The notes below the pieces were generated by a model. The model was not told where the DNA came from. It did not search any database and saw nothing but the letters and a program-made list of their open reading frames with translations. From Escherichia phage vB_EcoM_KAW3E185: a stretch of DNA of 64,000 bases. The translations under genes were made by a program, and so were the position numbers. Of the stretch, positions 6,789 through 63,661 are shown one piece after another. The first letter of the stretch is position 1, and every line of letters starts with the position of its first letter. The stretch is from sequence record MK373782.1. One strand, given 5' to 3'.

Positions 6789-6845
6789 AATATTCTCCTC
6801 TTGTTTTGATAGGTCTATAGTATCATAGACCATAGTTGTTGTACA

Positions 6846-7370
6846 TCATTTTAGCAAAATAAAATCAACTTGTTCTGCCAATGAACGTCTAAACATTAAT
6901 TGACAACTTCCGAGGATGAAATCAGGTGCTTCATAGACGGCGATGTAGTATCCTTTAGCTTTCAAGAGTTCAACATCCACCTGGTCATCAAACCATGCAT
7001 AAACCGCGTCAACACTTTCAAATCCAAAATAGAACCCTTGAGCCCAATCTTCACTCAATTCAAATGTGTGCTCAATTCTATAGTATCTTAAGATATTTTG
7101 TTCAAGGAGTTTGTCTTCATTTACTGTAGGACGATTAGGGACATTATAGTTGTCGCCATGATGGTAGAAGTTACCCGAGAGTATTCCATGCTTATCAAGG
7201 AACTCCCATGTTTCTTCAGAGTTGTCGGTGCCTGACCAACCGTATGGTGAGCGAGGTTCTTTATTCCAAGAGGTTTCCCAAATTCTGATGGCTTTACCGT
7301 CTTCGATAGCAATTCCTGGTAATGATTCACGTTGAGTACAAAAACTACGTTCTACGCGGTAAACTATCAT
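6846..7370 (-). CDS. hypothetical protein (174 aa)
   Basis: ORF with GGAG Shine-Dalgarno and upstream early promoter. Confidence 0.5.
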   Translation of the reverse strand: MIVYRVERSFCTQRESLPGIAIEDGKAIRIWETSWNKEPRSPYGWSGTDNSEETWEFLDKHGILSGNFYHHGDNYNVPNRPTVNEDKLLEQNILRYYRIEHTFELSEDWAQGFYFGFESVDAVYAWFDDQVDVELLKAKGYYIAVYEAPDFILGSCQLMFRRSLAEQVDFILLK

Positions 7371-7396
7371 ATTATTCTCCTCTGGTTGATATGGTT

Positions 7397-7425
7397 ATAA
7401 TATCAAAACCGGAGGAGAAGTAAAC
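7397..7425 (-). promoter_or_regulatory. sigma70-type early promoter (-35 GTTTAC, 17-nt spacer, -10 TATTAT)
   Basis: Consensus hexamers read on minus strand upstream of ORF 6846-7370; coordinates approximate. Confidence 0.45.
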
Positions 7426-7429
7426 AACT

Positions 7430-7849
7430 TTATGCAAAAGATGCTGGACAATATTTTTTGATTTGGAACTCAGGAACTACCATGAACTGACCAGCGAAAA
7501 CGATGTTATAAAGCTTAACACCATCTTCAACCCATTGGTCTGAAATAAAACCAGCGACTTGATTCGTTGTCCATGGAGACCCATCAGTTGCGGCAGCAAT
7601 AGTAAATTCATGGTCTTTTACAACTAAAACTGACCTGCACAGTTTCCATTTGAACGCTTTTTCTTCTGGTTCAATGAACTGGCTTGAGACGTAACCAATG
7701 TTACCATTAACATCTCGAACTTTAACTTCGTTACATCCAAAAACCGGATCACTCACAGAAAGAACTTCAACCAACTTCCCGGCAACTTTAGAGCGAGAAG
7801 CAACAGATACATATACGTAATCACCTGTAGAGAGATTTACAATATTCAT
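7430..7849 (-). CDS. hypothetical protein, paralog A of a three-member family (139 aa)
   Basis: Shares N-terminal (ASRSKxAGKLVEV) and C-terminal (GFISDQWVEDGxKLYNIVF) blocks with the next ORF. Confidence 0.55.
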   Translation of the reverse strand: MNIVNLSTGDYVYVSVASRSKVAGKLVEVLSVSDPVFGCNEVKVRDVNGNIGYVSSQFIEPEEKAFKWKLCRSVLVVKDHEFTIAAATDGSPWTTNQVAGFISDQWVEDGVKLYNIVFAGQFMVVPEFQIKKYCPASFA

Positions 7850-7858
7850 AATAATTCC

Positions 7859-8323
7859 TTAAGCTTTACGAGGAGACACATAGCGAGTGATTTCAGATTC
7901 TTTAACAACTCGGAAGTCACCTAAGAATACGATATTGTATAACTTTTCACCATCTTCAACCCATTGGTCGCTAATGAAGCCACACATAGTATCAGTTTTG
8001 CTTGGATAACCATATTCATCGATGAAGTCAAATTCTTTATCAGTCTGGAATTCAACACCTTTACACAAGGCCCATTTGAACTGTGTAGTAGGCTCAACGA
8101 TATCGCTTGAAGCAAAGTGGGCACTTACACGAGTTTCCAAGAATTTAGGACTTACATAGGCGAACTGAGTTTCAGTTTTTCCAGAACTAGGAATGATTCG
8201 AACTTTAACTTCTTTAATACGGCCCATGCCATTAGTACGAAGTCCTACTACTTCAACCAGCTTTCCTGCAGCTTTAGAACGAGACGCTGTCGATACACGC
8301 TTAATTTCACCAATAGTAATCAT
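7859..8323 (-). CDS. hypothetical protein, paralog B (154 aa)
   Basis: See paralog A; same conserved blocks. Confidence 0.55.
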   Translation of the reverse strand: MITIGEIKRVSTASRSKAAGKLVEVVGLRTNGMGRIKEVKVRIIPSSGKTETQFAYVSPKFLETRVSAHFASSDIVEPTTQFKWALCKGVEFQTDKEFDFIDEYGYPSKTDTMCGFISDQWVEDGEKLYNIVFLGDFRVVKESEITRYVSPRKA

Positions 8324-8351: not shown

Positions 8352-8381
8352 ATTATACTCCATCCATCCTTGGATGTACAA
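8352..8381 (-). promoter_or_regulatory. early promoter (-10 TATAAT; -35 TTGTAC-like) with ccaaggatgg-type spacer
   Basis: Near-copy of the promoter cassette at 8910, 52881 and 53901; coordinates approximate. Confidence 0.4.
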
Positions 8382-8383
8382 CA

Positions 8384-8878
8384 TTAATTAAGGATATTAA
8401 CCACAGCACTACGCGGAACTACACTAAAATCACCTGCATGAACTACGTTCAGAAGTTCAACACCGTCTTCAATCCACTGATCAGTTGCCCATCCATTTAC
8501 TGGACCAGCGAATGGGCGTCGAATTGAAACATATTTACACAACAAATCAGTAGGCTCAATAGGCTTAATCAGAGTACCGTACATACAAGCGATATCCATA
8601 TCAATACAGATGTCTTTAACGGGTTCTACTTCTTCAATCAACAATTCAAAGTCAGTGCTTGGAAGGGCGGTAGTAGAAATTGTACCGTGTGAATTTTTAA
8701 TTTCTAAGAATAACCAAGGGCCTTCAGCTTGTTTGATGAAGTTAACAATAGTGAAACTATTACCTTGAGTGGCACCTAAAATTTCACAAAACTTTTCATA
8801 AGCTCGCACTGAAGCACCGTACCAGTTGATTTGTTTTTCGTCTTTCAGGATGTAAGTAGCCGTAGTATTGATATTCAT
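8384..8878 (-). CDS. hypothetical protein, paralog C (164 aa; shares only the C-terminal module)
   Basis: C-terminus WATDQWIEDGVELLNVVHAGDFSVVP aligns with the paralog A/B C-termini. Confidence 0.5.
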   Translation of the reverse strand: MNINTTATYILKDEKQINWYGASVRAYEKFCEILGATQGNSFTIVNFIKQAEGPWLFLEIKNSHGTISTTALPSTDFELLIEEVEPVKDICIDMDIACMYGTLIKPIEPTDLLCKYVSIRRPFAGPVNGWATDQWIEDGVELLNVVHAGDFSVVPRSAVVNILN

Positions 8879-8909: not shown

Positions 8910-8939
8910 ATTATACTCCAACCATCCTTGGTTGTAAAC
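8910..8939 (-). promoter_or_regulatory. early promoter (-35 GTTTAC, 18 nt, -10 TATAAT), cassette family A
   Basis: Minus strand reads GTTTACaaccaaggatggttggagTATAAT; coordinates approximate. Confidence 0.5.
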
Positions 8940-9631: not shown

Positions 9632-10945
9632 TCAAATAAAATGGACGTCAAAACGACCACGAGTTGTGCCGACATACAATAACTGTTTAGCTAATTCTGA
9701 ATCGGCATAATGGATACACGGTGTATAAACAAAGGCTGTGTCAACAGACATACCCTGGGCCTTATGGAAGGTTGATACAGGTAGTGCCTTCACCTTAGTG
9801 AACATACGTTTAGCATCCCAGAATTCGCTCCATGGAGCTTTACCGCCTTTATTCCAGAATTTGTATGTTTCTGCGGTCTTAGCCAAAAACAAATTGAATT
9901 TATAAAGCTCTTCTTCAGAAGAAATAACCTTTATATCTTCGCGGATGTATTCTTCATCATCCCCATATGTTTCTACTGTAAGATTCCAGTATCGTATCAT
10001 ATATTCGCCTGAAACACCACGTGCTTTAACGAATGTAGACGTTTCTACAGCATCTCGAATACGAACGAATTGCCCGTTATTGAAAAGCATTTCGGTCATA
10101 TTTTTGCCATCTAGTTTATATGTCTTAGTAAATGGCTCTTGTAGAACAATGACTTCGTCTTTAATAAATGGTTTTTCTGTTTCAAGAAGTTTTCGGCGAA
10201 TAATTGAATTCAACTTGTCCACCGACTTATTTGTGAATGCCATCATTCGATTTTCGAAAAGGTCTTCAGGAGTTTTAACGACATTAAAATAGTTCGTCAT
10301 ATACGATTTAAGGTCTGTATATCCGTGAACACCGTGTCCATCAACTACTTTATCGTAAATCCATTTGCCATTACGAATATCAGTCGCAACATCAATAATT
10401 GGTGCATTGCTACGTTTAACTTCTGTAAGGTTGCATTGCACGAAGTCTTTGTGAGTGAAGAAAGGACTTAGATACGCAGTTGATTCGCCTGGGTCTACCG
10501 GACGAATCTGGCATCGGTCGCCGATGCCAATTACTGTACACCATTTAGGGATACTAGCTAACATTATTTTAAACAGAGAACGGTCGCACATTGACGCTTC
10601 ATCAAATAACAGTACACGACACAAGGCTAAGTCGGGAACCTTTTTCTGTTCAAACAATACGTTTTCTTCGTATGTAGTTGGGTTGATTTTAAGAATGCTA
10701 TGAATAGTCGATGCTTCTTGGCCCGCAAGTTTGCTTAGAACCTTTTTAGCAGCATGTGTAGGGGCTGCTAAAATAATACCTGATTCTCCAGAAGAAATAA
10801 GGGCTTCAACGATGAATCTAGTAAGGGTTGTTTTACCTGTACCAGCGGGCCCGTTAATAGTTACGTGATGTTTCTTTTCTTTAATAGCGTTCATAACAAC
10901 GTTGAAGGCGTTTTTCTGGCCTTCAGTCAAATCATCAAATGTCAT
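9632..10945 (-). CDS. dda: Dda DNA helicase (SF1), 437 aa
   Basis: Walker A GPAGTGKTT; N-terminus MTFDDLTEGQKNAF matches T4 Dda as I recall it. Confidence 0.9.
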   Translation of the reverse strand: MTFDDLTEGQKNAFNVVMNAIKEKKHHVTINGPAGTGKTTLTRFIVEALISSGESGIILAAPTHAAKKVLSKLAGQEASTIHSILKINPTTYEENVLFEQKKVPDLALCRVLLFDEASMCDRSLFKIMLASIPKWCTVIGIGDRCQIRPVDPGESTAYLSPFFTHKDFVQCNLTEVKRSNAPIIDVATDIRNGKWIYDKVVDGHGVHGYTDLKSYMTNYFNVVKTPEDLFENRMMAFTNKSVDKLNSIIRRKLLETEKPFIKDEVIVLQEPFTKTYKLDGKNMTEMLFNNGQFVRIRDAVETSTFVKARGVSGEYMIRYWNLTVETYGDDEEYIREDIKVISSEEELYKFNLFLAKTAETYKFWNKGGKAPWSEFWDAKRMFTKVKALPVSTFHKAQGMSVDTAFVYTPCIHYADSELAKQLLYVGTTRGRFDVHFI

Positions 10946-10969: not shown

Positions 10970-11308
10970 CTAACAATACGGCCTGTGTCTAGGATTCGTT
11001 GATACAATCTTTGCGTCTCCGCATCTAGCAATACGGCCTGTGTCTAGGATTCGTTGATACAATCTTTGCGTCTCCGCATCTAGTTTAATGTGTTTCATTT
11101 CAAGCTTATTAAACCAGAACTTACGCGGAGTTTCGACCATTCTTAGAACTCCCATTTTTAAATCTGTTTTATACTGTGTTTTCAAAGTATCGAAAACTTT
11201 ATCTGCAATATCCTTTCTAAAAAATACTGCAGGACGATGCTCATCAAGTGGAACCGGGACAGTAAATCCTTCCATATCTCGATAAACTATTGCATATACA
11301 TAAACCAT
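10970..11308 (-). CDS. hypothetical protein (112 aa) with C-terminus altered by a 55-bp tandem duplication
   Basis: ORF upstream of dda; the last 20 codons are read from the second repeat copy in a shifted frame. Confidence 0.45.
   Translation of the reverse strand: MVYVYAIVYRDMEGFTVPVPLDEHRPAVFFRKDIADKVFDTLKTQYKTDLKMGVLRMVETPRKFWFNKLEMKHIKLDAETQRLYQRILDTGRIARCGDAKIVSTNPRHRPYC
10974..11083. repeat. perfect direct tandem repeat, 2 x 55 bp
   Basis: caatacggcctgtgtctaggattcgttgatacaatctttgcgtctccgcatctag occurs twice back to back. Confidence 0.9.
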
Positions 11309-19162: not shown

Positions 19163-19225
19163 TTTAACTCCTTAGTTGATTTGATAGGACTACTATACTA
19201 TAGTCCATCTATAATGTAAACAAGT

Positions 19226-20684: not shown

Positions 20685-20710
20685 TTTGTTCTCCAGTAGT
20701 TGATAGGTCT

Positions 20711-20739
20711 ATAATAACACAACTACTGGAGAAGTAAAC
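20711..20739 (-). promoter_or_regulatory. early promoter (-35 GTTTAC, 17 nt, -10 TATTAT), cassette family B
   Basis: Minus strand reads GTTTACttctccagtagttgtgtTATTAT; coordinates approximate. Confidence 0.5.
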
Positions 20740-21114
20740 TTAAAAATGTAATTTAGATATATCTGCGTTGATTTCGTTTTGGTTTGCGTCATATGCAATT
20801 AAACGAACCGCTTTAGATGGGTCATTCAATGCATAGAAATGATGGAACATTGCTCGAACGATATCACCATTTACGAGTTCTACCTGGATAGGAGAACCTT
20901 TTTCGAGTTGGAAATGTTCGTAAGCTTTGATGGTTCGTAGATAATCAAGTTTTTGATTTCCAGCTCCAACTATTTGTACGATACGTTTGCCTGTGTTTTC
21001 CATACGAGATACAATAGTTTTAGGAGCAAGAATAACGTAGGTTGCCAGCGGAGAAACTACTTCAACAGTTGTGTTTTCGGTGATTGCAGTAAAAATTGCT
21101 TGAGACATATTCAT
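20740..21114 (-). CDS. hypothetical protein (124 aa)
   Basis: ORF on gene strand. Confidence 0.5.
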   Translation of the reverse strand: MNMSQAIFTAITENTTVEVVSPLATYVILAPKTIVSRMENTGKRIVQIVGAGNQKLDYLRTIKAYEHFQLEKGSPIQVELVNGDIVRAMFHHFYALNDPSKAVRLIAYDANQNEINADISKLHF

Positions 21115-33591: not shown

Positions 33592-33622
33592 TTTGTTTGT
33601 TGATGAACTTATTATACTCCAA

Positions 33623-33640
33623 ATGGGACCGAAGTCCCAT
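33623..33640 (-). other. RNA hairpin atgggac-UUCG-gtcccat after regA
   Basis: Perfect 7-bp stem with UUCG loop a few nt after the regA stop; coordinates approximate. Confidence 0.45.
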
Positions 33641-33644
33641 TGCT

Positions 33645-51597: not shown

Positions 51598-51902
51598 TAT
51601 AATGTTCTCTCAAATTTGTGGAAGCATTTACGGCATTTCAATTTCAAGTTATCAGTGGTCCAGTTAACCAGTTGGACTTGGATAGTTCCACATTCCGGGC
51701 ATGGATGTTTTGCTGCCGATTTGGCAGCATTTTCACGTCGTTCAACCATTTTCATTATTTCGTTCCATGCCGGAGGAACGAACTCTTCTTCACCGTGGAT
51801 TTTATCTCGCTGAACAAATTCAATCTTTGAACTATCGTCAATAAACTTAACCAAGCGGTGATTAGTGCTCATATCAATATCCTCTAAAAGGCGTAGTTTC
51901 AT
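51597..51902 (-). CDS. zinc-ribbon protein (101 aa)
   Basis: CPECG...CRKC motif pair. Confidence 0.45.
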   Translation of the reverse strand: MKLRLLEDIDMSTNHRLVKFIDDSSKIEFVQRDKIHGEEEFVPPAWNEIMKMVERRENAAKSAAKHPCPECGTIQVQLVNWTTDNLKLKCRKCFHKFERTL

Positions 51903-52852
51903 TATAACACCTCAATGGCATTTCGTAAACCATCCGCTTTCGCATTCAGAGCTTTTAACGATTTAGTTTGTTCTGCAATCTGGGCTTCGACTTCTTTCAG
52001 ACGAGATTTGAGATATTCGCGTTCTTCTCTTAAGTTATCAACTTTTTCTGCTTTAGGCTCTTTAATAGACTTAGGCTTATACTCGTTAGGGTTCTTCAAC
52101 TTAATTTGAATGCGAGAACTGTATAACATTGAACCATTATCTTCGGTTTCATCATACATTTCTACCACGTCCATGATTCTTAACATCATGCGAAGTTTAT
52201 AAGACAGCGAACGAATGGTTTTATTGTGCTTCTTAATTTCTTCAACTTTCATGGTGCCGAGATTACGTGAGTAATAATAAGGAACCTGAATATCAATTGA
52301 TAATGATGCGGTACCATTACCGGTTGGTTTGAACACTGCAGTAACCCAATCTTTAGCATGAACTGTATTTGTACGATCATCGCCGCCTGTGAATAATTTA
52401 CGAGAATGTTTAAAAAGCATATTCACTTGGTTATTGAATTCACAAGCAAATTTATCAGCAAATTTAGTTTCAGGAATGGTAGTTAACCAATCAGCCAAAT
52501 GAGTCTTTTTAACATCATTAACAATAGTGAATTCAACCAAATCGGTTTTAGATGTCACAGATTTAATAAAGCTCGGCTTCATAAAGTTTTTAATGTTATC
52601 GCGAGCTACAGTAGAAGATAATAAACGAGAACGTTTGAACCATTGAAGCAGTGTCCCTAATGAATGAGAATATGCATTTTGAGTATCTTTACAGATATGA
52701 TTTTCTTGGCCTATGTATGTACCAAAATCTCGAAGAATACCACTTACTACATCTCGGTGTGGAACATCAAATCCTAGTACACCAGAAGCACGTTGGGCAT
52801 GAACGTTAGCGATAAGACCTGCAAAGTATTCAATGTAATGTGAACGTGTCAT
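51902..52852 (-). CDS. hypothetical protein with C-terminal coiled coil (316 aa)
   Basis: Heptad-like C-terminus; own early promoter. Confidence 0.5.
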   Translation of the reverse strand: MTRSHYIEYFAGLIANVHAQRASGVLGFDVPHRDVVSGILRDFGTYIGQENHICKDTQNAYSHSLGTLLQWFKRSRLLSSTVARDNIKNFMKPSFIKSVTSKTDLVEFTIVNDVKKTHLADWLTTIPETKFADKFACEFNNQVNMLFKHSRKLFTGGDDRTNTVHAKDWVTAVFKPTGNGTASLSIDIQVPYYYSRNLGTMKVEEIKKHNKTIRSLSYKLRMMLRIMDVVEMYDETEDNGSMLYSSRIQIKLKNPNEYKPKSIKEPKAEKVDNLREEREYLKSRLKEVEAQIAEQTKSLKALNAKADGLRNAIEVL

Positions 52853-52880: not shown

Positions 52881-52910
52881 ATTATACTCCAACCATCCTT
52901 GGTTGTAAAC
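52881..52910 (-). promoter_or_regulatory. early promoter (-35 GTTTAC, 18 nt, -10 TATAAT), cassette family A
   Basis: Same 30-bp cassette as at 8910-8939; coordinates approximate. Confidence 0.5.
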
Positions 52911-52914
52911 TGAT

Positions 52915-53874
52915 TTATGATTTTAACGCATTCATTGCGTTAAAAAGTTTAGAATACTGCAACTGGAGATTCGTTACAACACTTTGAGCATCACGAAGCT
53001 TAGCTTGTGCTTTGTCAAGTTCAACAGACAGTTGGTCCATAGTGGCCTTGATTTGATTGTAATGGTAATCTTCGGCCGGAAGAAGGTCATTAGAAACATT
53101 TAGTTTTACTGCAGACAGTTTGCACACATTTGGCAAACCTTTAAACATTGATTTACCCGAAGTAGAATAAGCACTTAGGACTTCGGCCTGTTCAATTGGG
53201 GTCCCAGTAAGCGATGCTTCAAACAATGCATTTTCCTTTTTAAGATTTTGATAGTATTCAGAGTCTTTGTGCCACCATGGCGCAGGAACCTTTTTACCAA
53301 TAGATACACGAGCCTGGATAGCGATATTGCCCTTATTCTTGATAGGGTCGATAATATTAAGCTCACGAGAATAAATTGCTTTAATCTGGTGAATATTATC
53401 ACCTAACACTTCCAACGCTTGGTGGAATACACGAGCAACGTTATCATTCTTAGGTTTATACGTAAGAGTGAACTCGTTCTCACTGATAACCATGATTTCC
53501 AACTTATCGTAAGTATATTTCAAATGTTTCATGTTAATTGCTTGAGGACGAATACGAGAAGCAATGGCCATCAGATTGTTAAGGTTATTCCGGAACTGCT
53601 TAGCGAAATATTGTCCTTCACCGCCAATACAAAAATTACGAAGTTTCTGTTTGGCCAATAAACGGCTGAACTCGCCATTTTTAATGAACTCTTTAACGGG
53701 TGTGTTAGTAACGCATTCAAATTGAGTAAACTTACGAGAATTAATCCCATAATACGAACAGATTTCCTCAATCTCTTCAGGAGTCTTTACAGGCATACGG
53801 ATAGGATTAGGTCCTGGAGTATATGCGTTCGAGGTAAATTCTTTGATAAGTTCTCTACGTGTAATAAAAGCCAT
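52915..53874 (-). CDS. hypothetical protein with C-terminal coiled coil (319 aa)
   Basis: Heptad-like C-terminus; own early promoter. Confidence 0.5.
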   Translation of the reverse strand: MAFITRRELIKEFTSNAYTPGPNPIRMPVKTPEEIEEICSYYGINSRKFTQFECVTNTPVKEFIKNGEFSRLLAKQKLRNFCIGGEGQYFAKQFRNNLNNLMAIASRIRPQAINMKHLKYTYDKLEIMVISENEFTLTYKPKNDNVARVFHQALEVLGDNIHQIKAIYSRELNIIDPIKNKGNIAIQARVSIGKKVPAPWWHKDSEYYQNLKKENALFEASLTGTPIEQAEVLSAYSTSGKSMFKGLPNVCKLSAVKLNVSNDLLPAEDYHYNQIKATMDQLSVELDKAQAKLRDAQSVVTNLQLQYSKLFNAMNALKS

Positions 53875-53900
53875 TTTATATTCCTCATGTTGAAAAATTT

Positions 53901-53930
53901 ATTATACTCCAACCATCCTTGGTTGTACAT
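53901..53930 (-). promoter_or_regulatory. early promoter (-10 TATAAT; -35 GTACA-like), cassette family A
   Basis: Near-copy of the 8910/52881 cassette; coordinates approximate. Confidence 0.45.
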
Positions 53931-54925: not shown

Positions 54926-54987
54926 AACTATTTCCTCAGATTGAATTGGAACTCAAAACCATTATAACCCGTCCTTGGGTAAAGCGT

Positions 54988-56000: not shown

Positions 56001-56468
56001 TTATTTCAGTAAAGTAACTTCCGAGATTTCTTCCCAACCATCTTTATCAGTTGAAATAAAATCTGCTACATAAAGAGCCGTACGTAATGATACATTGCGA
56101 AGACGAGATACGTTAGCCTTCATCCAGGACAATGCTTTATACGTTTCTGCATCAGTCAGACCACGTTTCTGCATCATGTCAGTAGATAATATTACATCTT
56201 CAACTCGAACCATAATCTCTTCATTAGAGTGTACTCCAAGGTCGAGATACACTGAACGAGATACTAAAGCTTGAAGGTGTGGAGCAAGTTTAGAACCGCG
56301 TTCTAACTCTTTATCGATATCAACGTTTGTAATGAAAACGATAGTACCTTCAAACTCAAATTCTTTATCAATACCCTTATCCTCGAGATAAGATGACGCA
56401 GTGCTCCAACAAACTTTGCGTTTATCGCCGGTATCTAATGCTGCTTTAAGAAGGTTCAAGATGTCCAT
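56001..56468 (-). CDS. AAA+-like ATPase C-terminal fragment (155 aa); gene possibly frameshifted
   Basis: Sensor-1-like TIVFITNVD and Arg-finger-like LVSRSVYL; in-frame upstream codons continue ...LLIDDVDVFSD (Walker B-like) with no start codon. Confidence 0.4.
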   Translation of the reverse strand: MDILNLLKAALDTGDKRKVCWSTASSYLEDKGIDKEFEFEGTIVFITNVDIDKELERGSKLAPHLQALVSRSVYLDLGVHSNEEIMVRVEDVILSTDMMQKRGLTDAETYKALSWMKANVSRLRNVSLRTALYVADFISTDKDGWEEISEVTLLK

Positions 56469-56694
56469 ATCTGAGAATACGTCAACGTCGTCGATTAAGA
56501 GAACGCTGTCTGCATCACGGTTGAGCCAAAGTTGTTCGTAAAGGCCAATACCGGAGATTTTACCATACTCGCTTCAATAAGATTCACTATGCCGTTTACC
56601 ATGTTATAGGTAAACATCGGATAATTGTATTGTACTACAACATAAGCGATAAGCAAAAGTTTCATTTTGTTCTCCGTTCGTTTTGATAGGACTA

Positions 56695-56723
56695 CTATAA
56701 TATAGTCCTACCAAGATGTAAAC
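56695..56723 (-). promoter_or_regulatory. early promoter (-35 GTTTAC) with GGACTA...TAGTCC near-palindrome
   Basis: Upstream of the 56-codon ORF starting about 56663; coordinates approximate. Confidence 0.35.
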
Positions 56724-57116: not shown

Positions 57117-57143
57117 AACGTTCTCCTCTAGTAAGTAAGGTTT

Positions 57144-57172
57144 ACTATAACACAACCTGAGGAGAAGTAAAC
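57144..57172 (-). promoter_or_regulatory. early promoter (-35 GTTTAC, 17 nt, -10 TATAGT), cassette family B
   Basis: Minus strand reads GTTTACttctcctcaggttgtgtTATAGT; coordinates approximate. Confidence 0.45.
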
Positions 57173-57187
57173 TGATAGATGCCAAAA

Positions 57188-58770: not shown

Positions 58771-58973
58771 TATTCTTCTACATGTTGTTTACGGCCTTTC
58801 TTATCAATAAAGGTATATTCAACGAATGTTCCGATGTAGTCTTTATCTACATCATGTGGACTATTAATTGGACATTTGGTACGGCAAATGCGTTCCCATT
58901 GACGAATAATTACTGCCTTATTCTTTGGGTCATATGGATGTGGATAATGTATATTCATAATAACGGTTCCCAA
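58746..58973 (-). CDS. hypothetical protein (75 aa)
   Basis: ORF on gene strand. Confidence 0.4.
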   Translation of the reverse strand: MGTVIMNIHYPHPYDPKNKAVIIRQWERICRTKCPINSPHDVDKDYIGTFVEYTFIDKKGRKQHVEEYCLKVTWL

Positions 58974-59452
58974 TCAACAATCACAATTTCTAGTTTAGTA
59001 GAATACGTATCTAAAATCTCTTCGATGACATCCCAGTTTCCACCACCAATACCTGCACCAATTCTTGGCATATAAATTACAGGCTTTATTATCTTATTCT
59101 TTCCGAATTCATTTAATTCTATTATACAATTCATTAAAGCAGAGTACTCAAAATTAGGTCCCGGCTCAAACTGTGTATAAAGATTAAAGCAATAAGCTTT
59201 ATGGGTCTTAAAATATTTTTCATAAACCGAATAAGTCCCGAGTTTAGACTCGTCTCCGAATTCGGTTTGAAGTTTATCGGCTTCCAGAATTTTTGGATAA
59301 GCCTTTGCTAATTGGCCTGCTACACCGGCGCCCATTGTATGAAAACAATTACACCCATGAGCAATATTATTACCTTTAGAAAACAGGGCGACAATATCGC
59401 CCTTGATATAGTTTTTAATCACTTGCTGCAAGTCCTCTATTATAAGAGTCAA
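58955..59452 (-). CDS. macro-domain protein (ADP-ribose binding/processing), 165 aa
   Basis: NIAHGCNCFHTMGAGVAGQL and IGAGIGGGNW glycine-rich motifs typical of macro domains. Confidence 0.55.
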   Translation of the reverse strand: MTLIIEDLQQVIKNYIKGDIVALFSKGNNIAHGCNCFHTMGAGVAGQLAKAYPKILEADKLQTEFGDESKLGTYSVYEKYFKTHKAYCFNLYTQFEPGPNFEYSALMNCIIELNEFGKNKIIKPVIYMPRIGAGIGGGNWDVIEEILDTYSTKLEIVIVDWEPLL

Positions 59453-60309: not shown

Positions 60310-60768
60310 CTAGATTTTAATCACTGCTTTAGAAGCTTTTCCTGGTAGTCGTTTACTGTTAATAATAGCCATTCTGCATTGAAGAGTCTTCATTTTGAAT
60401 GCTGGATTTTCGCGACAAACTGTAAGTCCTAACCAAAGATTTCCGTCAGTTATTTCTAAACGGCCTGGGCGATATTCGACACCTTCGACAAAATCTTCAT
60501 CAACATCTGGACGGGCCGGCATTGATAAAAATTCTGCAACTTCTTTAACATGATTTTTTACTTTATGAAATAATTCAAAAACGTAATTCTCATCTATTTC
60601 TCTCTGGATGGCACGATCTAAGAGATGTTGAGAATACTTGATATGAAAGCCTGGTAGTCCAAGAGACTTTGCAGCATCTTTTATACCGGCATTTATTTTG
60701 CGGAACTCCGTTTCAAAGATTCGACGGAGTTTATTACGGCGGATAAAAACGTCTGAATTGATAGTCAT
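60310..60768 (-). CDS. regB: RegB endoribonuclease (152 aa)
   Basis: MTINSDVFIRRNKLRR...YSQHLLDRAIQREIDE...GRLEITDGNLWLG matches T4 RegB as I recall it. Confidence 0.85.
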   Translation of the reverse strand: MTINSDVFIRRNKLRRIFETEFRKINAGIKDAAKSLGLPGFHIKYSQHLLDRAIQREIDENYVFELFHKVKNHVKEVAEFLSMPARPDVDEDFVEGVEYRPGRLEITDGNLWLGLTVCRENPAFKMKTLQCRMAIINSKRLPGKASKAVIKI

Positions 60769-60796
60769 TTTGATTTCTCCTCTAGTTGACAGGTCT

Positions 60797-60825
60797 ATAG
60801 TAACACAACTAGAGGAGAAGTAAAC
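60797..60825 (-). promoter_or_regulatory. early promoter (-35 GTTTAC, 17 nt, -10 TACTAT), cassette family B
   Basis: Minus strand reads GTTTACttctcctctagttgtgtTACTAT upstream of regB; coordinates approximate. Confidence 0.5.
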
Positions 60826-60829
60826 TACT

Positions 60830-61045
60830 TTATTGATAAAATGGAGTTAAAGCCCAAGATTCTTTAGATACCATATTGGCGAAATGCCTCATCTCTTCGA
60901 TTTGGCGTCGACGCTGGTCAGCATAGTCTTCTTCGCCTTCTTCCTTACAATCTTCAAGGTCTTCTTCAAGATACTTTAAGTATTCACTACAAATTTTGTT
61001 GACCTTTTCTTGAAAGTCCAATAACCCAGTAATAGTAGAAGCCAT
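60830..61045 (-). CDS. small acidic hypothetical protein (71 aa)
   Basis: ORF on gene strand. Confidence 0.4.
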   Translation of the reverse strand: MASTITGLLDFQEKVNKICSEYLKYLEEDLEDCKEEGEEDYADQRRRQIEEMRHFANMVSKESWALTPFYQ

Positions 61046-61311
61046 TAGTATTTTTCCTCAGGTCGAAATACTGCACGACACGCCCACATGCTGGCTTCTT
61101 TTAGATGTTGCTTAGCATACTTAAGAGCCTGCACTGCATCCATATCTTCTTTGGTTTGTTGCTCTGTTTCATTTTCTTTCAAGATATATGCTTCTTCAAT
61201 CAGAGCATCAAACAACAATCCAAGACGGACTTCTGCATCTTTAATAGCGTTCACTTTACCGATTTTATCATCGGTATGCGGCTTGTAGCCTTTGATGTCT
61301 TCAATCGACAT
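61045..61311 (-). CDS. hypothetical protein (about 88 aa)
   Basis: Track ORF 61045-61479; start chosen at Met57 with GAGGAAA Shine-Dalgarno. Confidence 0.4.
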   Translation of the reverse strand: MSIEDIKGYKPHTDDKIGKVNAIKDAEVRLGLLFDALIEEAYILKENETEQQTKEDMDAVQALKYAKQHLKEASMWACRAVFRPEEKY

Positions 61312-61525
61312 AAGGAATTTCCTCATCAGTGGCAAGGTCATATTCGACCAATTGGATAGGCTCATTAATACCATATCCACGTACAGTGATATCAGTTGTC
61401 GGATAGTTTCCGGTAATATCACCCATTCTAAATGCTTCAGTGAATGATTGCTCGCCTGAGCAACTAAACCAGGCGGCAAAACATTTTAAAACATCTTCAG
61501 ACCCTTCTATAATCAATTTAGCCAT
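61301..61525 (-). CDS. hypothetical protein (74 aa)
   Basis: ORF on gene strand; ATG overlaps the upstream stop. Confidence 0.45.
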   Translation of the reverse strand: MAKLIIEGSEDVLKCFAAWFSCSGEQSFTEAFRMGDITGNYPTTDITVRGYGINEPIQLVEYDLATDEEIPYVD

Positions 61526-63190: not shown

Positions 63191-63604
63191 TTAGTAAATT
63201 GATTTGCCATAATATTTGTACCAAGACGGCCGTTGAGCAATTTTTTCATCTAAGCGTGCTTGACTTATCGCAATGGACGCTTCGGACGGGTCATAATTAT
63301 TACGAAATTCGGCAGGGATGTCGGAAATATCCTGGACTGTCGTGTCCTTGATTTTGAAACCACGTTTCAAGCATTCAGCGATTAGCTCGATTTGACGTAA
63401 ACGTAAAAATTCGAGTTTGTCGTAAAAGAATGTTACGTGACCTGTGCCTAAGATAAATGTTGGAGAGATTTTAAAATCCTTTACACGTTTACCGTTTTGA
63501 ACATGTTTACGGACTGCACCAAATACGCGTGGTAATTCACGATACTCAGCCATAAGATGTTGGTCGGCCAGTTCAGAAACAAGTGTTAAATTGATACGAG
63601 TCAT
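63191..63604 (-). CDS. denV: endonuclease V (pyrimidine dimer DNA glycosylase) DenV
   Basis: [35 protein letters not shown] matches T4 DenV as I recall it; start chosen at Met5 with GGAGGA Shine-Dalgarno. Confidence 0.9.
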
Positions 63605-63631
63605 AATTTCCTCCAAGTAGTTGATGAATGT

Positions 63632-63661
63632 ATAGTATCAAAGTCCTTGGAGGAAGTAAAC
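63632..63661 (-). promoter_or_regulatory. early promoter (-35 GTTTAC, 18 nt, -10 TACTAT) upstream of denV
   Basis: Hexamers on minus strand; coordinates approximate. Confidence 0.4.

What the first reader, a model, noticed from the sequence alone, without database searches (positions are those of the whole stretch)
52881..53930. Reiterated 30-bp early-promoter cassette (family A) with a palindromic spacer
Near-identical copies of attatactccaaccatccttggttgtaaac occur at about 8910, 52881 and 53901, with a variant at about 8352. On the minus strand each reads GTTTAC, an 18-nt spacer and TATAAT. The spacer contains the palindrome caacca/tggttg, a possible operator. Such identical cassettes provide homology for recombination and mark independently regulated modules: two of the tandem paralogs and two of the large coiled-coil proteins.
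Basis: seen in the sequence. Interest (0 to 1): 0.4.

Follow-up and report, generated by a model that had tools for sequence, protein, structure and literature searches.

The report
Repeated early-promoter/stem-loop cassette in T4-like phage
A ~60-base promoter cassette with a small built-in hairpin is repeated four times in this RB69-like (T4-family) phage, and related phages have lost exactly the gene lying between two copies, so it is a new example of the already described "PeSL" shuffling cassettes rather than a new kind of element.

Summary
Four copies lie at 8352, 8910, 52881 and 53901, where chance predicts none. The window is the first 64 kb of a Mosigvirus (RB69-like T-even phage).

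On the minus strand each copy reads T(T/G)TACA, 17 nt, TATAAT, then a ~25-nt leader, a ribosome-binding site and an ATG. The genes driven are motB, motB.1, nrdC.3 and nrdC.5.

This is a PeSL, a "promoter-early stem-loop" cassette (Arbiol 2010; Comeau 2014). It belongs to the commonest subclass, with the stem-loop between -35 and -10.

The recombination idea is confirmed by natural variants:
- 21 public phage records lack exactly the 1020-bp nrdC.5 unit.
- At least 11 phages (13 records) lack the 558-bp motB.1 unit.
- The junctions are chimeric cassettes. One crossover (JK42) maps inside the hairpin loop.
- RB69 shows a patch exchange between copies 44 kb apart.

The operator idea is not supported. 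Across T4 and Mosigvirus promoters the asymmetric centre AAGGAY is conserved, while the arms differ and stay complementary. That is the signature of a hairpin, not of a dimer binding site.

One speculative extra: hairpin + GGAG + UAUAAU resembles the proven T4 motB RegB cleavage site, and regB is in the window.

Verdict: new member of a known kind, low to moderate interest.

The parts
52881..52909 (-). Family-A promoter core upstream of nrdC.3: -35 TTTACA (52904-52909), hairpin CAACCA-AGGA-TGGTTG (52890-52905), GGAG (52887-52890), -10 TATAAT (52881-52886). The leader and ribosome-binding site run down to the ATG at 52852.
   Evidence: annotated as 'promoter' in MH243438
53901..53929 (-). Family-A promoter core upstream of nrdC.5: -35 TGTACA (53924-53929), hairpin 53910-53925, -10 TATAAT (53901-53906). 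ATG at 53874.
8910..8938 (-). Family-A promoter core upstream of motB.1: -35 TTTACA (8933-8938), hairpin 8919-8934, -10 TATAAT (8910-8915). ATG at 8878.
8352..8380 (-). Variant family-A core upstream of motB: -35 TGTACA (8375-8380), hairpin CATCCA-AGGA-TGGATG (8361-8376; double change that keeps pairing), -10 TATAAT (8352-8357). ATG at 8323. Positional orthologue of the T4 motB promoter.
51902..52852 (-). nrdC.3 homologue (316 aa), driven by the 52881 copy.
52915..53874 (-). nrdC.5 homologue (319 aa, DUF7235). Together with one cassette it forms the 1020-bp unit missing from 21 related phage records.
8384..8878 (-). motB.1-like gene (164 aa). Together with one cassette it forms the 558-bp unit missing from JK42, phi25-307, AV114-118 and others.
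7859..8323 (-). motB homologue (154 aa), driven by the 8352 copy.
54961..54987 (-). Related element upstream of nrdC.6: MotA-box-like CGCTTTA, hairpin ACCC-AAGGAC-GGGT, TATAAT. It is the orthologue of the mapped T4 middle promoter PnrdC.7 and has the same conserved loop with different arms.
33611..33641 (-). Fifth 'hairpin + GGAGTATAAT' module, upstream of gene 43: AATGGGAC-TTCG-GTCCCATT, T, GGAGTATAAT, with no -35. It is the counterpart of the T4 middle promoter P43.
   Evidence: (D11)
60310..60768 (-). regB endoribonuclease gene. Relevant only to the speculative RNA-level reading.
   Evidence: PF10715, E = 6e-69

Best explanation
Each copy is a T-even early promoter cassette of the PeSL (promoter-early stem-loop) type.

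Inferred, not measured:
- Host sigma-70 RNA polymerase starts transcription about 7 nt downstream of TATAAT, using -35 TTTACA or TGTACA and a 17-bp spacer.
- The short leader carries the ribosome-binding site of the downstream non-essential gene.
- The 6-bp hairpin in the spacer acts as nucleic-acid structure, most likely in RNA that reads through from upstream promoters. It would separate or stabilise neighbouring messages. It is not a protein operator.

Shown by comparative sequence:
- The near-identical copies are substrates for the phage's homologous recombination.
- Exchange between the two neighbouring copies removes or adds exactly one gene plus one cassette.
- Exchange between distant copies homogenises them.
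For: Identity of the window. It is 99.6% identical to Mosigvirus NicPhage, with the gene order of RB69.

Promoter features.
- Sequence and placement.
- Existing promoter annotation in one record.
- Orthology to the T4 motB promoter.
- A related AAGGAT-hairpin element in T4 is the mapped promoter PnrdC.7, with its start at 53325, exactly 7 nt after the TATAAT.

PeSL definition. It comprises an AT-rich upstream region, -35/-10, a stem-loop (most often between -35 and -10), a ribosome-binding site and an ATG. The T4/PST consensus is TTTACW-N17-TAYWAT (PMC2839356; PMC4122927).

Recombination.
- The WFL6982 junction carries the nrdC.5-copy upstream half and the nrdC.3-copy downstream half, with 1020 bp missing.
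- The same junction is contiguous in 21 of 153 matching records.
- The motB.1-less junction is contiguous in 13 of the 30 best records, representing 11 phages.
- The JK42 junction has the chimeric stem CAACCA..TGGATG, which places the crossover in the loop. In phi25-307 the crossover lies upstream of the first arm. That implies at least two events.
- All four presence/absence combinations exist.
- The RB69 P_nrdC.3 leader equals the P_motB.1 leader, while the window's does not.

Hairpin.
- 12 of 23 predicted early promoters in the window have a perfect stem of 6 bp or more, against 20% of random windows. Mean folding energy is -13.2 versus -9.2 kcal/mol.
- Stem-AAGGAY-stem hairpins number 5 in the window and 4 in T4, against ~0.2 expected.
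- 4 of 6 pairs show changes on both sides, and 90% of cells are paired against 17-42% when the partner is slid.
Against: - There are no transcript data for this phage, so promoter activity and early timing are inferred.
- The cassettes lack the TGn extended -10 typical of T4 early promoters; they read GAG instead.
- Two copies have the weaker -35 TGTACA.
- RB69's motB copy reads TATAAA, with no T at -7.
- The hairpin is weak, -6.9 kcal/mol, and has no U-run, so it is not an intrinsic terminator. Its actual role is unknown.
- JK42 carries an A.A mismatch in the stem (-2.6 kcal/mol), so an intact stem is not essential.
- The A:T to T:A double change could arise by templated mutation in a quasi-palindrome rather than by selection.
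- The covariation set was chosen for having at least 3 flanking pairs, so one search is partly circular.
Confidence: 0.8

Rival explanations
1. Dual coding. The same 30 bp is a promoter in DNA. In RNA read through from upstream it would be a processing module: a hairpin followed at once by a RegB/S1 cleavage site (GGAG-UAUAAU). RegB would cut the polycistronic early RNA between the genes. The hairpin would be left 2 nt from the 3' end of the upstream fragment as protection. Transcripts started at the cassette itself would lack the GGAG and escape. This adds to the best explanation rather than replacing it.
For: - The RegB/S1 target is 11 nt of single-stranded RNA, GGAGRAYARAA. The proven T4 motB site is GGAGUAUAAAA (PMC1702504).
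- The cassettes read GGAGUAUAAU(G/A/C), 9 of 11 identical to that site.
- T4 carries its site 8 nt after the orthologous promoter's -10.
- All 5 GGAGTATAA in the window are on the coding strand, intergenic, and 0-1 nt after a hairpin, against 0.64 expected.
- T4 nrdC.3 and RB69 motB keep hairpin + GGAGTATAAAT where -35 or -10 quality is poor.
- regB is present at 60310-60768.
- GGAG is unpaired in the centroid folds.
Against: - Position 10 is U, which is rare among cleaved T4 sites (3 of 26). Position 11 is not A in three of the four copies.
- Most intergenic GGAG in T4 (42 of 68 tested) are not cut.
- GGAGTATAAT is also simply the -10 region of the mapped T4 middle promoters P39 and P43, so its recurrence can be explained at the DNA level.
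- The first G of GGAG is the last base of the stem.
- The T4 AAGGAT hairpins at rIIA.1, nrdC.4 and nrdC.7 have no GGAG.
Confidence: 0.25
2. The spacer palindrome is an operator. A dimeric phage or host DNA-binding protein would bind CAACCA-N4-TGGTTG and switch these four promoters off or on together.
For: - The half-sites are 10 bp apart centre to centre, and the spacer is identical in three copies.
- How T4 early promoters are shut off is still unexplained (PMC2988021).
Against: - Related promoters keep the asymmetric centre AAGGAY but have six different arm sequences, all complementary. This is the opposite of what a half-site-reading dimer predicts.
- The hairpin lies 0 to 6 nt from the -10 in different promoters, and in both early-type and MotA-type promoters.
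- The natural recombinant JK42 has mismatched half-sites.
- The only helix-turn-helix candidate nearby (56001-56468) scores below the Pfam cut-off and is conserved across 1297 T4-like records, including Vibrio and Acinetobacter phages. It is therefore not specific to these cassettes.
- From general knowledge: T-even DNA carries glucosylated hydroxymethyl-C, which hinders major-groove reading at the six C:G pairs.
Confidence: 0.07
3. The repeat is only a leftover of tandem gene duplication. The promoter was copied along with its gene, and the palindrome has no function of its own.
For: - motB and motB.1 are paralogues.
- A perfect 6-bp stem occurs in 20% of random 64-nt windows.
Against: - nrdC.3 and nrdC.5 show no detectable similarity, yet share a 26-nt identical core.
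- The 8910 and 52881 copies are 30/30 identical across 44 kb, in front of unrelated genes.
- Leaders have diverged to 64-81% identity while the spacer is invariant.
- The patchy leader exchange in RB69 shows ongoing exchange between copies.
Confidence: 0.08

Closest known systems
PeSL (promoter-early stem-loop) cassettes of T4-type phages (Arbiol et al. 2010, PMC2839356; Comeau et al. 2014, PMC4122927)
   Same: - Composite of an AT-rich upstream region, a sigma-70-type -35/-10 with a 17-bp spacer, a stem-loop between -35 and -10, a ribosome-binding site and an ATG.
- Repeated in hyperplastic regions of non-essential genes.
- Flanks genes that are present or absent between close relatives, with crossovers inside the cassette, including in the loop.
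   Different: - PeSLs were described for RB49/phi1, T4/PST and KVP40/nt-1. I found no description for the RB69-like Mosigvirus group.
- The stem is not the G-run/C-run of RB49 or the AGNA/TCNT of PST. It is a 4-7-bp stem around a conserved AAGGAY centre.
- The hairpin has no terminator-like U-run.
T4 early promoters (Hinton 2010 review, PMC2988021)
   Same: - -35 (G)TTTACA, perfect -10 TATAAT, AT-rich upstream region.
- Sits in front of early non-essential genes.
- The 8352 copy aligns position for position with the T4 motB promoter.
   Different: - No TGn extended -10.
- The spacer sequence is unrelated to that of T4 motB, where the stem GGGACC/GGTCCC spans the -10.
T4 middle promoters PnrdC.7, P39 and P43 (mapped start sites 53325, 5349 and 29933; PMC2988021 Table 1)
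   Same: - PnrdC.7 carries the same AAGGAT-centred hairpin directly before TATAAT.
- P39 and P43 carry hairpin + GGAGTATAAT.
   Different: They have a MotA box, or no -35 at all, instead of TTTACA, and depend on MotA/AsiA.
RegB/S1 cleavage site of the T4 motB leader, GGAGUAUAAAA (Durand et al. 2006, PMC1702504)
   Same: - The first 9 nt, GGAGUAUAA, are identical.
- The location is intergenic, in early RNA, in the motB region.
- regB is present in the window.
   Different: - In T4 the site lies downstream of the transcription start. Here it overlaps the -10 and would be present only in read-through RNA.
- Positions 10-11 deviate from the consensus.
- Cleavage is untested.

Membership tests
PeSL cassette | Sigma-70-like -35 and -10 hexamers with ~17-bp spacing | tested here: met
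   TTTACA or TGTACA, 17 nt, TATAAT in all four copies; 10-11 of 12 matches
PeSL cassette | Stem-loop within or next to the promoter | tested here: met
   6-bp stem with a 4-nt loop between -35 and -10, -6.9 to -7.3 kcal/mol. This position is the commonest PeSL subclass.
PeSL cassette | 3' end formed by the ribosome-binding site and start codon of the downstream gene; upstream gene's stop codon and an AT-rich stretch at the 5' end | tested here: met
   Alignments A1 and A6. The nrdC.5 stop codon lies 5 nt before the -35 of the 52881 copy.
PeSL cassette | Several copies in hyperplastic, non-essential regions | tested here: met
   Four copies, in the motB and nrdC clusters, and at most 4 places per related genome. 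Both regions are deletable in T4 (PMC1702504; PMC3014915).
PeSL cassette | Gene gains or losses between close relatives, with crossovers inside the cassettes | tested here: met
   nrdC.5 unit; motB.1 unit. The JK42 crossover lies in the loop.
PeSL cassette | Measured promoter and terminator activity; mini-circle formation | not testable with these tools
   Needs reporter fusions and inverse PCR on infected cells.
T4 early promoter class | -35 GTTTAC-type, -10 TATAAT, UP-like AT-rich upstream region | tested here: met
T4 early promoter class | TGn extended -10 | tested here: not met
   GAG precedes TATAAT in all four copies (column TG_before_second = no)
T4 early promoter class | Transcription start used immediately after infection by unmodified host polymerase | not testable with these tools
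   Support is indirect only: orthology with the T4 motB promoter.
Repressor operator | Conserved symmetric half-sites read by a dimer | tested here: not met
   The arms vary (CAACC, CATCC, CCAC, AGCC, TATACC, ACCC) while the asymmetric centre is conserved.
Repressor operator | A cognate DNA-binding protein | tested here: inconclusive
   Only a sub-threshold HTH_37 hit, in a gene conserved across T4-like phages generally.
Intrinsic terminator | G+C-rich stem followed by a U-run | tested here: not met
   The terminator scan does not call it; the tail reads GAGUAUAAUG.
RegB/S1 cleavage site | [quoted passage not shown] | tested here: inconclusive
   GGAGUAUAAU(G/A/C): positions 1-9 fit (U at position 5, as in T4 motB); positions 10-11 deviate. 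Unpaired in centroid folds, except the first G.
RegB/S1 cleavage site | RegB encoded by the phage | tested here: met
   PF10715, E = 6e-69, at 60310-60768
RegB/S1 cleavage site | RegB-dependent cut between GG and AG | not testable with these tools
   Needs primer extension in wild-type versus regB-mutant infection.

The most novel reading that the evidence does not exclude
The cassette is dual-coded. In DNA it is an early promoter. In read-through RNA the same bases form a hairpin plus a RegB/S1 cleavage site (GGAG-UAUAAU). Each mobile gene module would then carry both its own transcription start and a post-transcriptional insulator that cuts it free from the upstream message. The conserved AAGGAY loop with covarying stems, shared by early and middle promoters in T4 and Mosigvirus, would be part of that RNA-level signal.
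Probability: 0.22. Interest if true: 0.5.

Novelty: new member of a known kind. Interest (0 to 1): 0.3.

Why it matters
The cassettes give a clean natural example, in the RB69 group, of how short promoter/stem-loop repeats let T4-like phages add, drop and swap accessory genes without disturbing their neighbours.
- Two optional genes, motB.1 and nrdC.5, each have crossover points resolved to a few bases.
- All four presence/absence combinations are found among sequenced isolates.

This is useful for annotating Mosigvirus genomes, where these sites are almost never annotated. It also helps in choosing safe insertion or deletion points when engineering therapeutic T-even phages.

The AAGGAY-loop hairpin and the possible overlap with a RegB site are small new leads on how early messages are insulated. 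Neither changes the general picture.

Tried and rejected
1. IMG/VR scan with CAAGGATG-N(1-9)-TATAAT.
2. IMG/VR scan with TACA-N4-AGGA-N6-GAGTATAAT. It gave 22 loci. About half were true family-A copies and were used only to see stem variants. The rest were chance matches.
3. Terminator reading of the hairpin. Rejected: there is no U-run and the scan does not call it.
4. Candidate repressor. The ORF at 56001-56468 has a weak HTH_37 hit, but it is conserved in 1297 T4-like records of many genera. It therefore has no specific link to these cassettes.
5. Rfam, whole window, gathering thresholds: no family.
6. Tandem-duplication origin of the nrdC.3/nrdC.5 pair. All-against-all BLASTP finds no similarity between them.
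7. Middle-promoter reading. The four cassettes have no TGCTT MotA box. The neighbouring nrdC.6 element does have one.
8. Cruciform or supercoil switch. Considered, but 6-bp arms are too short to extrude readily (general knowledge). Not pursued.

Full report
**What is there**

The 30-mer ATTATACTCCAACCATCCTTGGTTGTAAAC occurs exactly at 8910 and 52881 and with two mismatches at 53901. None of 100 shuffles gave a match. A looser pattern adds the variant at 8352.

All genes in this part of the window run on the minus strand. On that strand each copy reads T(T/G)TACA, 17 nt, TATAAT. Similarity continues through a ~25-nt leader to a ribosome-binding site and ATG, about 59 nt in all (family D3; alignment A1).

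Only two of the four copies carry GTTTAC. The other two read TGTACA at -35. The palindrome CAACCA-AGGA-TGGTTG overlaps the last two bases of the -35 hexamer. The 8352 copy has CATCCA...TGGATG, a change on both arms that keeps pairing.

**Where the window comes from**

The region is 99.6% identical to Escherichia phage NicPhage and to other Mosigvirus isolates. Coordinates and gene order match the first 64 kb of RB69.

In RB69 names the four cassettes precede these genes:
- motB (7859-8323)
- motB.1 (8384-8878)
- nrdC.3 (51902-52852)
- nrdC.5 (52915-53874)

motB and motB.1 are paralogues. nrdC.3 and nrdC.5 show no detectable similarity to each other, and nrdC.5 is a DUF7235 protein. Both clusters are dispensable in T4 (PMC1702504; PMC3014915).

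**Promoter reading**

- The two copies in 51.5-55.2 kb are the best sigma-70 matches there, 11/12 and 10/12.
- One GenBank record (NBG1) already labels the 52881 copy "promoter".
- The 8352 copy aligns position for position with the T4 motB promoter, TTTACA-N17-TATAAT, with the upstream coding sequence conserved. Primer-extension stops at the T4 motB promoter are reported in PMC1702504.
- There is no MotA box, so these are early-type promoters.

No transcript data exist for this phage. Activity and timing are therefore inferred.

**Known kind**

The anatomy matches the PeSL (promoter-early stem-loop) cassette. A PeSL has an AT-rich upstream stretch, -35/-10, a stem-loop that is most often between -35 and -10, a ribosome-binding site and an ATG. 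PeSLs are repeated in hyperplastic regions and mediate gene gain and loss (PMC2839356; PMC4122927). The T4/PST consensus is TTTACW-N17-TAYWAT.

**Recombination, tested**

*The nrdC.5 unit.* Phage WFL6982 lacks exactly 1020 bp, which is nrdC.5 plus one cassette. Its junction has the upstream half of the nrdC.5 copy (TGTACA) and the leader of the nrdC.3 copy. That junction is contiguous in 21 of 153 matching records.

*The motB.1 unit.* A synthetic junction lacking the 558-bp unit was used as a query. It is contiguous in 13 of the 30 best records, representing 11 phages: JK42, JK45, phi25-307, AV114-118, JM17, PTE-Eco05, NHEP36 and RPN187.

*Crossover points.* The JK42 junction reads CAACCA..TGGATG, one arm from each parent, which places the crossover inside the 10-nt centre. 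In phi25-307 the crossover lies between the -35 and the first arm. That implies at least two events.

*Assortment and exchange between distant copies.* All four presence/absence combinations exist. In RB69 the P_nrdC.3 leader, CTTTCTATCTTAAC, is that of P_motB.1, which lies 44 kb away. The window's P_nrdC.3 leader reads GAATTTATCTTAAC. Distant copies therefore also exchange patches.

Related genomes hold at most four copies. A relative collinear with the window (MM02) has four, so the window most likely holds the whole family.

**What the palindrome is**

Hairpins are a general property of the predicted early promoters in this window. Twelve of 23 have a perfect stem of 6 bp or more, against 20% of random windows. 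Mean folding energy is -13.2 versus -9.2 kcal/mol. Their sequences are unrelated to one another.

A specific hairpin family emerges around the centre AAGGAY, with arms that differ between sites:

| Arm pair | Site |
|---|---|
| CAACC/GGTTG | window motB.1, nrdC.3, nrdC.5 |
| CATCC/GGATG | window motB |
| TACCAC/GTGGTA | T4 rIIA.1 |
| CCAC/GTGG | T4 nrdC.4 |
| AGCC/GGCT | T4 nrdC.3 |
| TTATACC/GGTATAA | T4 nrdC.7 |
| ACCC/GGGT | window nrdC.6 |

About 0.2 such hairpins with four or more flanking pairs are expected per ~60 kb. The window has 5 and T4 has 4.

On ten variants, four of six pairs show changes on both sides. Ninety per cent of cells pair, against 17-42% when the partner is slid. The set was selected for at least 3 pairs, so the enrichment is the cleaner test.

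The T4 nrdC.7 element is the mapped middle promoter PnrdC.7. Its start at 53325 is exactly 7 nt after the TATAAT.

A conserved asymmetric centre, variable complementary arms and a variable distance to the -10 (0-6 nt) are what a hairpin predicts. A dimer-bound operator predicts the opposite.

The hairpin is modest, -5 to -8 kcal/mol, and lacks a U-run, so it is not a classical terminator. JK42 tolerates a mismatch in it. What it does is not established.

**A further lead**

Every copy reads hairpin + GGAG + UAUAAU. The RegB/S1 target is GGAGRAYARAA, and the proven T4 motB site is GGAGUAUAAAA. T4 carries that site 8 nt after the orthologous -10.

All five GGAGTATAA in the window are on the coding strand, intergenic, and directly after a hairpin, against 0.64 expected. 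The fifth is upstream of gene 43 and has no -35. regB is at 60310-60768.

Against this, GGAGTATAAT is also the -10 region of the mapped T4 promoters P39 and P43. Positions 10-11 deviate from the RegB consensus. Most intergenic GGAG in T4 are not cut. I rate this reading at about 0.2-0.25.

**Verdict**

- The promoter and recombination interpretations are supported, the latter directly by natural variants.
- The operator interpretation is not supported.
- The element is a new member (Mosigvirus) of the known PeSL kind. Rfam has nothing here.
- Interest is low to moderate.

Noticed in passing
window 7375-7443, 20689-20757, 57135-57186, 60775-60843, ~63600-63660 (minus strand): A second promoter family (D1/D2/D4). 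Its spacer, TTCTCCTC..., is complementary to the downstream ribosome-binding site, GAGGAGAA, and the -10 and start site lie in the loop. Read-through RNA would hide the ribosome-binding site, while RNA started at the promoter would expose it. One copy precedes regB. This resembles the known T4 arrangement at the late promoters of e, soc and 49, but here with early-type promoters.
   Followed up: partly
window 6805-6846, 19180-19221, 56682-56723 (minus strand): A third promoter family (D6). It has a palindrome of the GGACTATA...TAGTCC type spanning the -10 hexamer (TATAGT).
   Followed up: no
window 33611-33641 (minus strand), upstream of gene 43 (903-aa ORF): A UUCG-tetraloop hairpin, AATGGGAC-TTCG-GTCCCATT, followed by T-GGAGTATAAT. 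It shares TTGGAGTATAAT with family A but has no -35. The T4 counterpart is the middle promoter P43 (start 29933). The gp43 translational-operator hairpin (AGAC-AAUAACUC-GUCU) lies just downstream.
   Followed up: partly
window 54961-54987 (minus strand), upstream of nrdC.6: A MotA-box-like CGCTTTA, then hairpin ACCC-AAGGAC-GGGT, then TATAAT. It is the orthologue of the mapped T4 middle promoter PnrdC.7. Here it precedes nrdC.6, because nrdC.7 sits elsewhere in Mosigvirus.
   Followed up: partly
window 10970-11079: A perfect-register tandem duplication of a 55-bp unit, 98% identical, just upstream of dda (9632-10945). Each unit ends in CAT, which is ATG on the minus strand (D9).
   Followed up: no
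window 52918-52945 (minus strand), 3' end of nrdC.5: A 10-bp hairpin, UUUUAACGCA-AUGAA-UGCGUUAAAA, inside the last codons of nrdC.5 and ending 12 nt before the -35 of the 52881 cassette. The 112-nt region folds better than shuffles (z = -2.6). It is a second stem-loop belonging to this cassette.
   Followed up: no
L026 2819-2890 (RB69 motB upstream) and L030 ~3392 (T4 nrdC.3 upstream): In these orthologous or related elements the box reads TATAAATC, not TATAAT. That is a poor sigma-70 -10 but a 7/8 match to the T4 late-promoter motif TATAAATA, and a better fit to the RegB consensus.
   Followed up: no
window 51906-52760 (nrdC.3 body): Many Tequatrovirus genomes match only nrdC.3, at ~85% identity (query positions 5-859). 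The similarity stops ~90 nt short of the gene's 5' end and does not reach the cassette. This suggests a module boundary inside the N-terminal coding region.
   Followed up: no
window 61045-61479 and 58955-59452 (minus strand): An ORF with an Acb2/Tad1 hairpin domain (anti-CBASS/anti-Thoeris sponge family; E = 1.5e-17) and an ORF with a Macro domain (E = 2e-6) lie in the tk-regB region.
   Followed up: no
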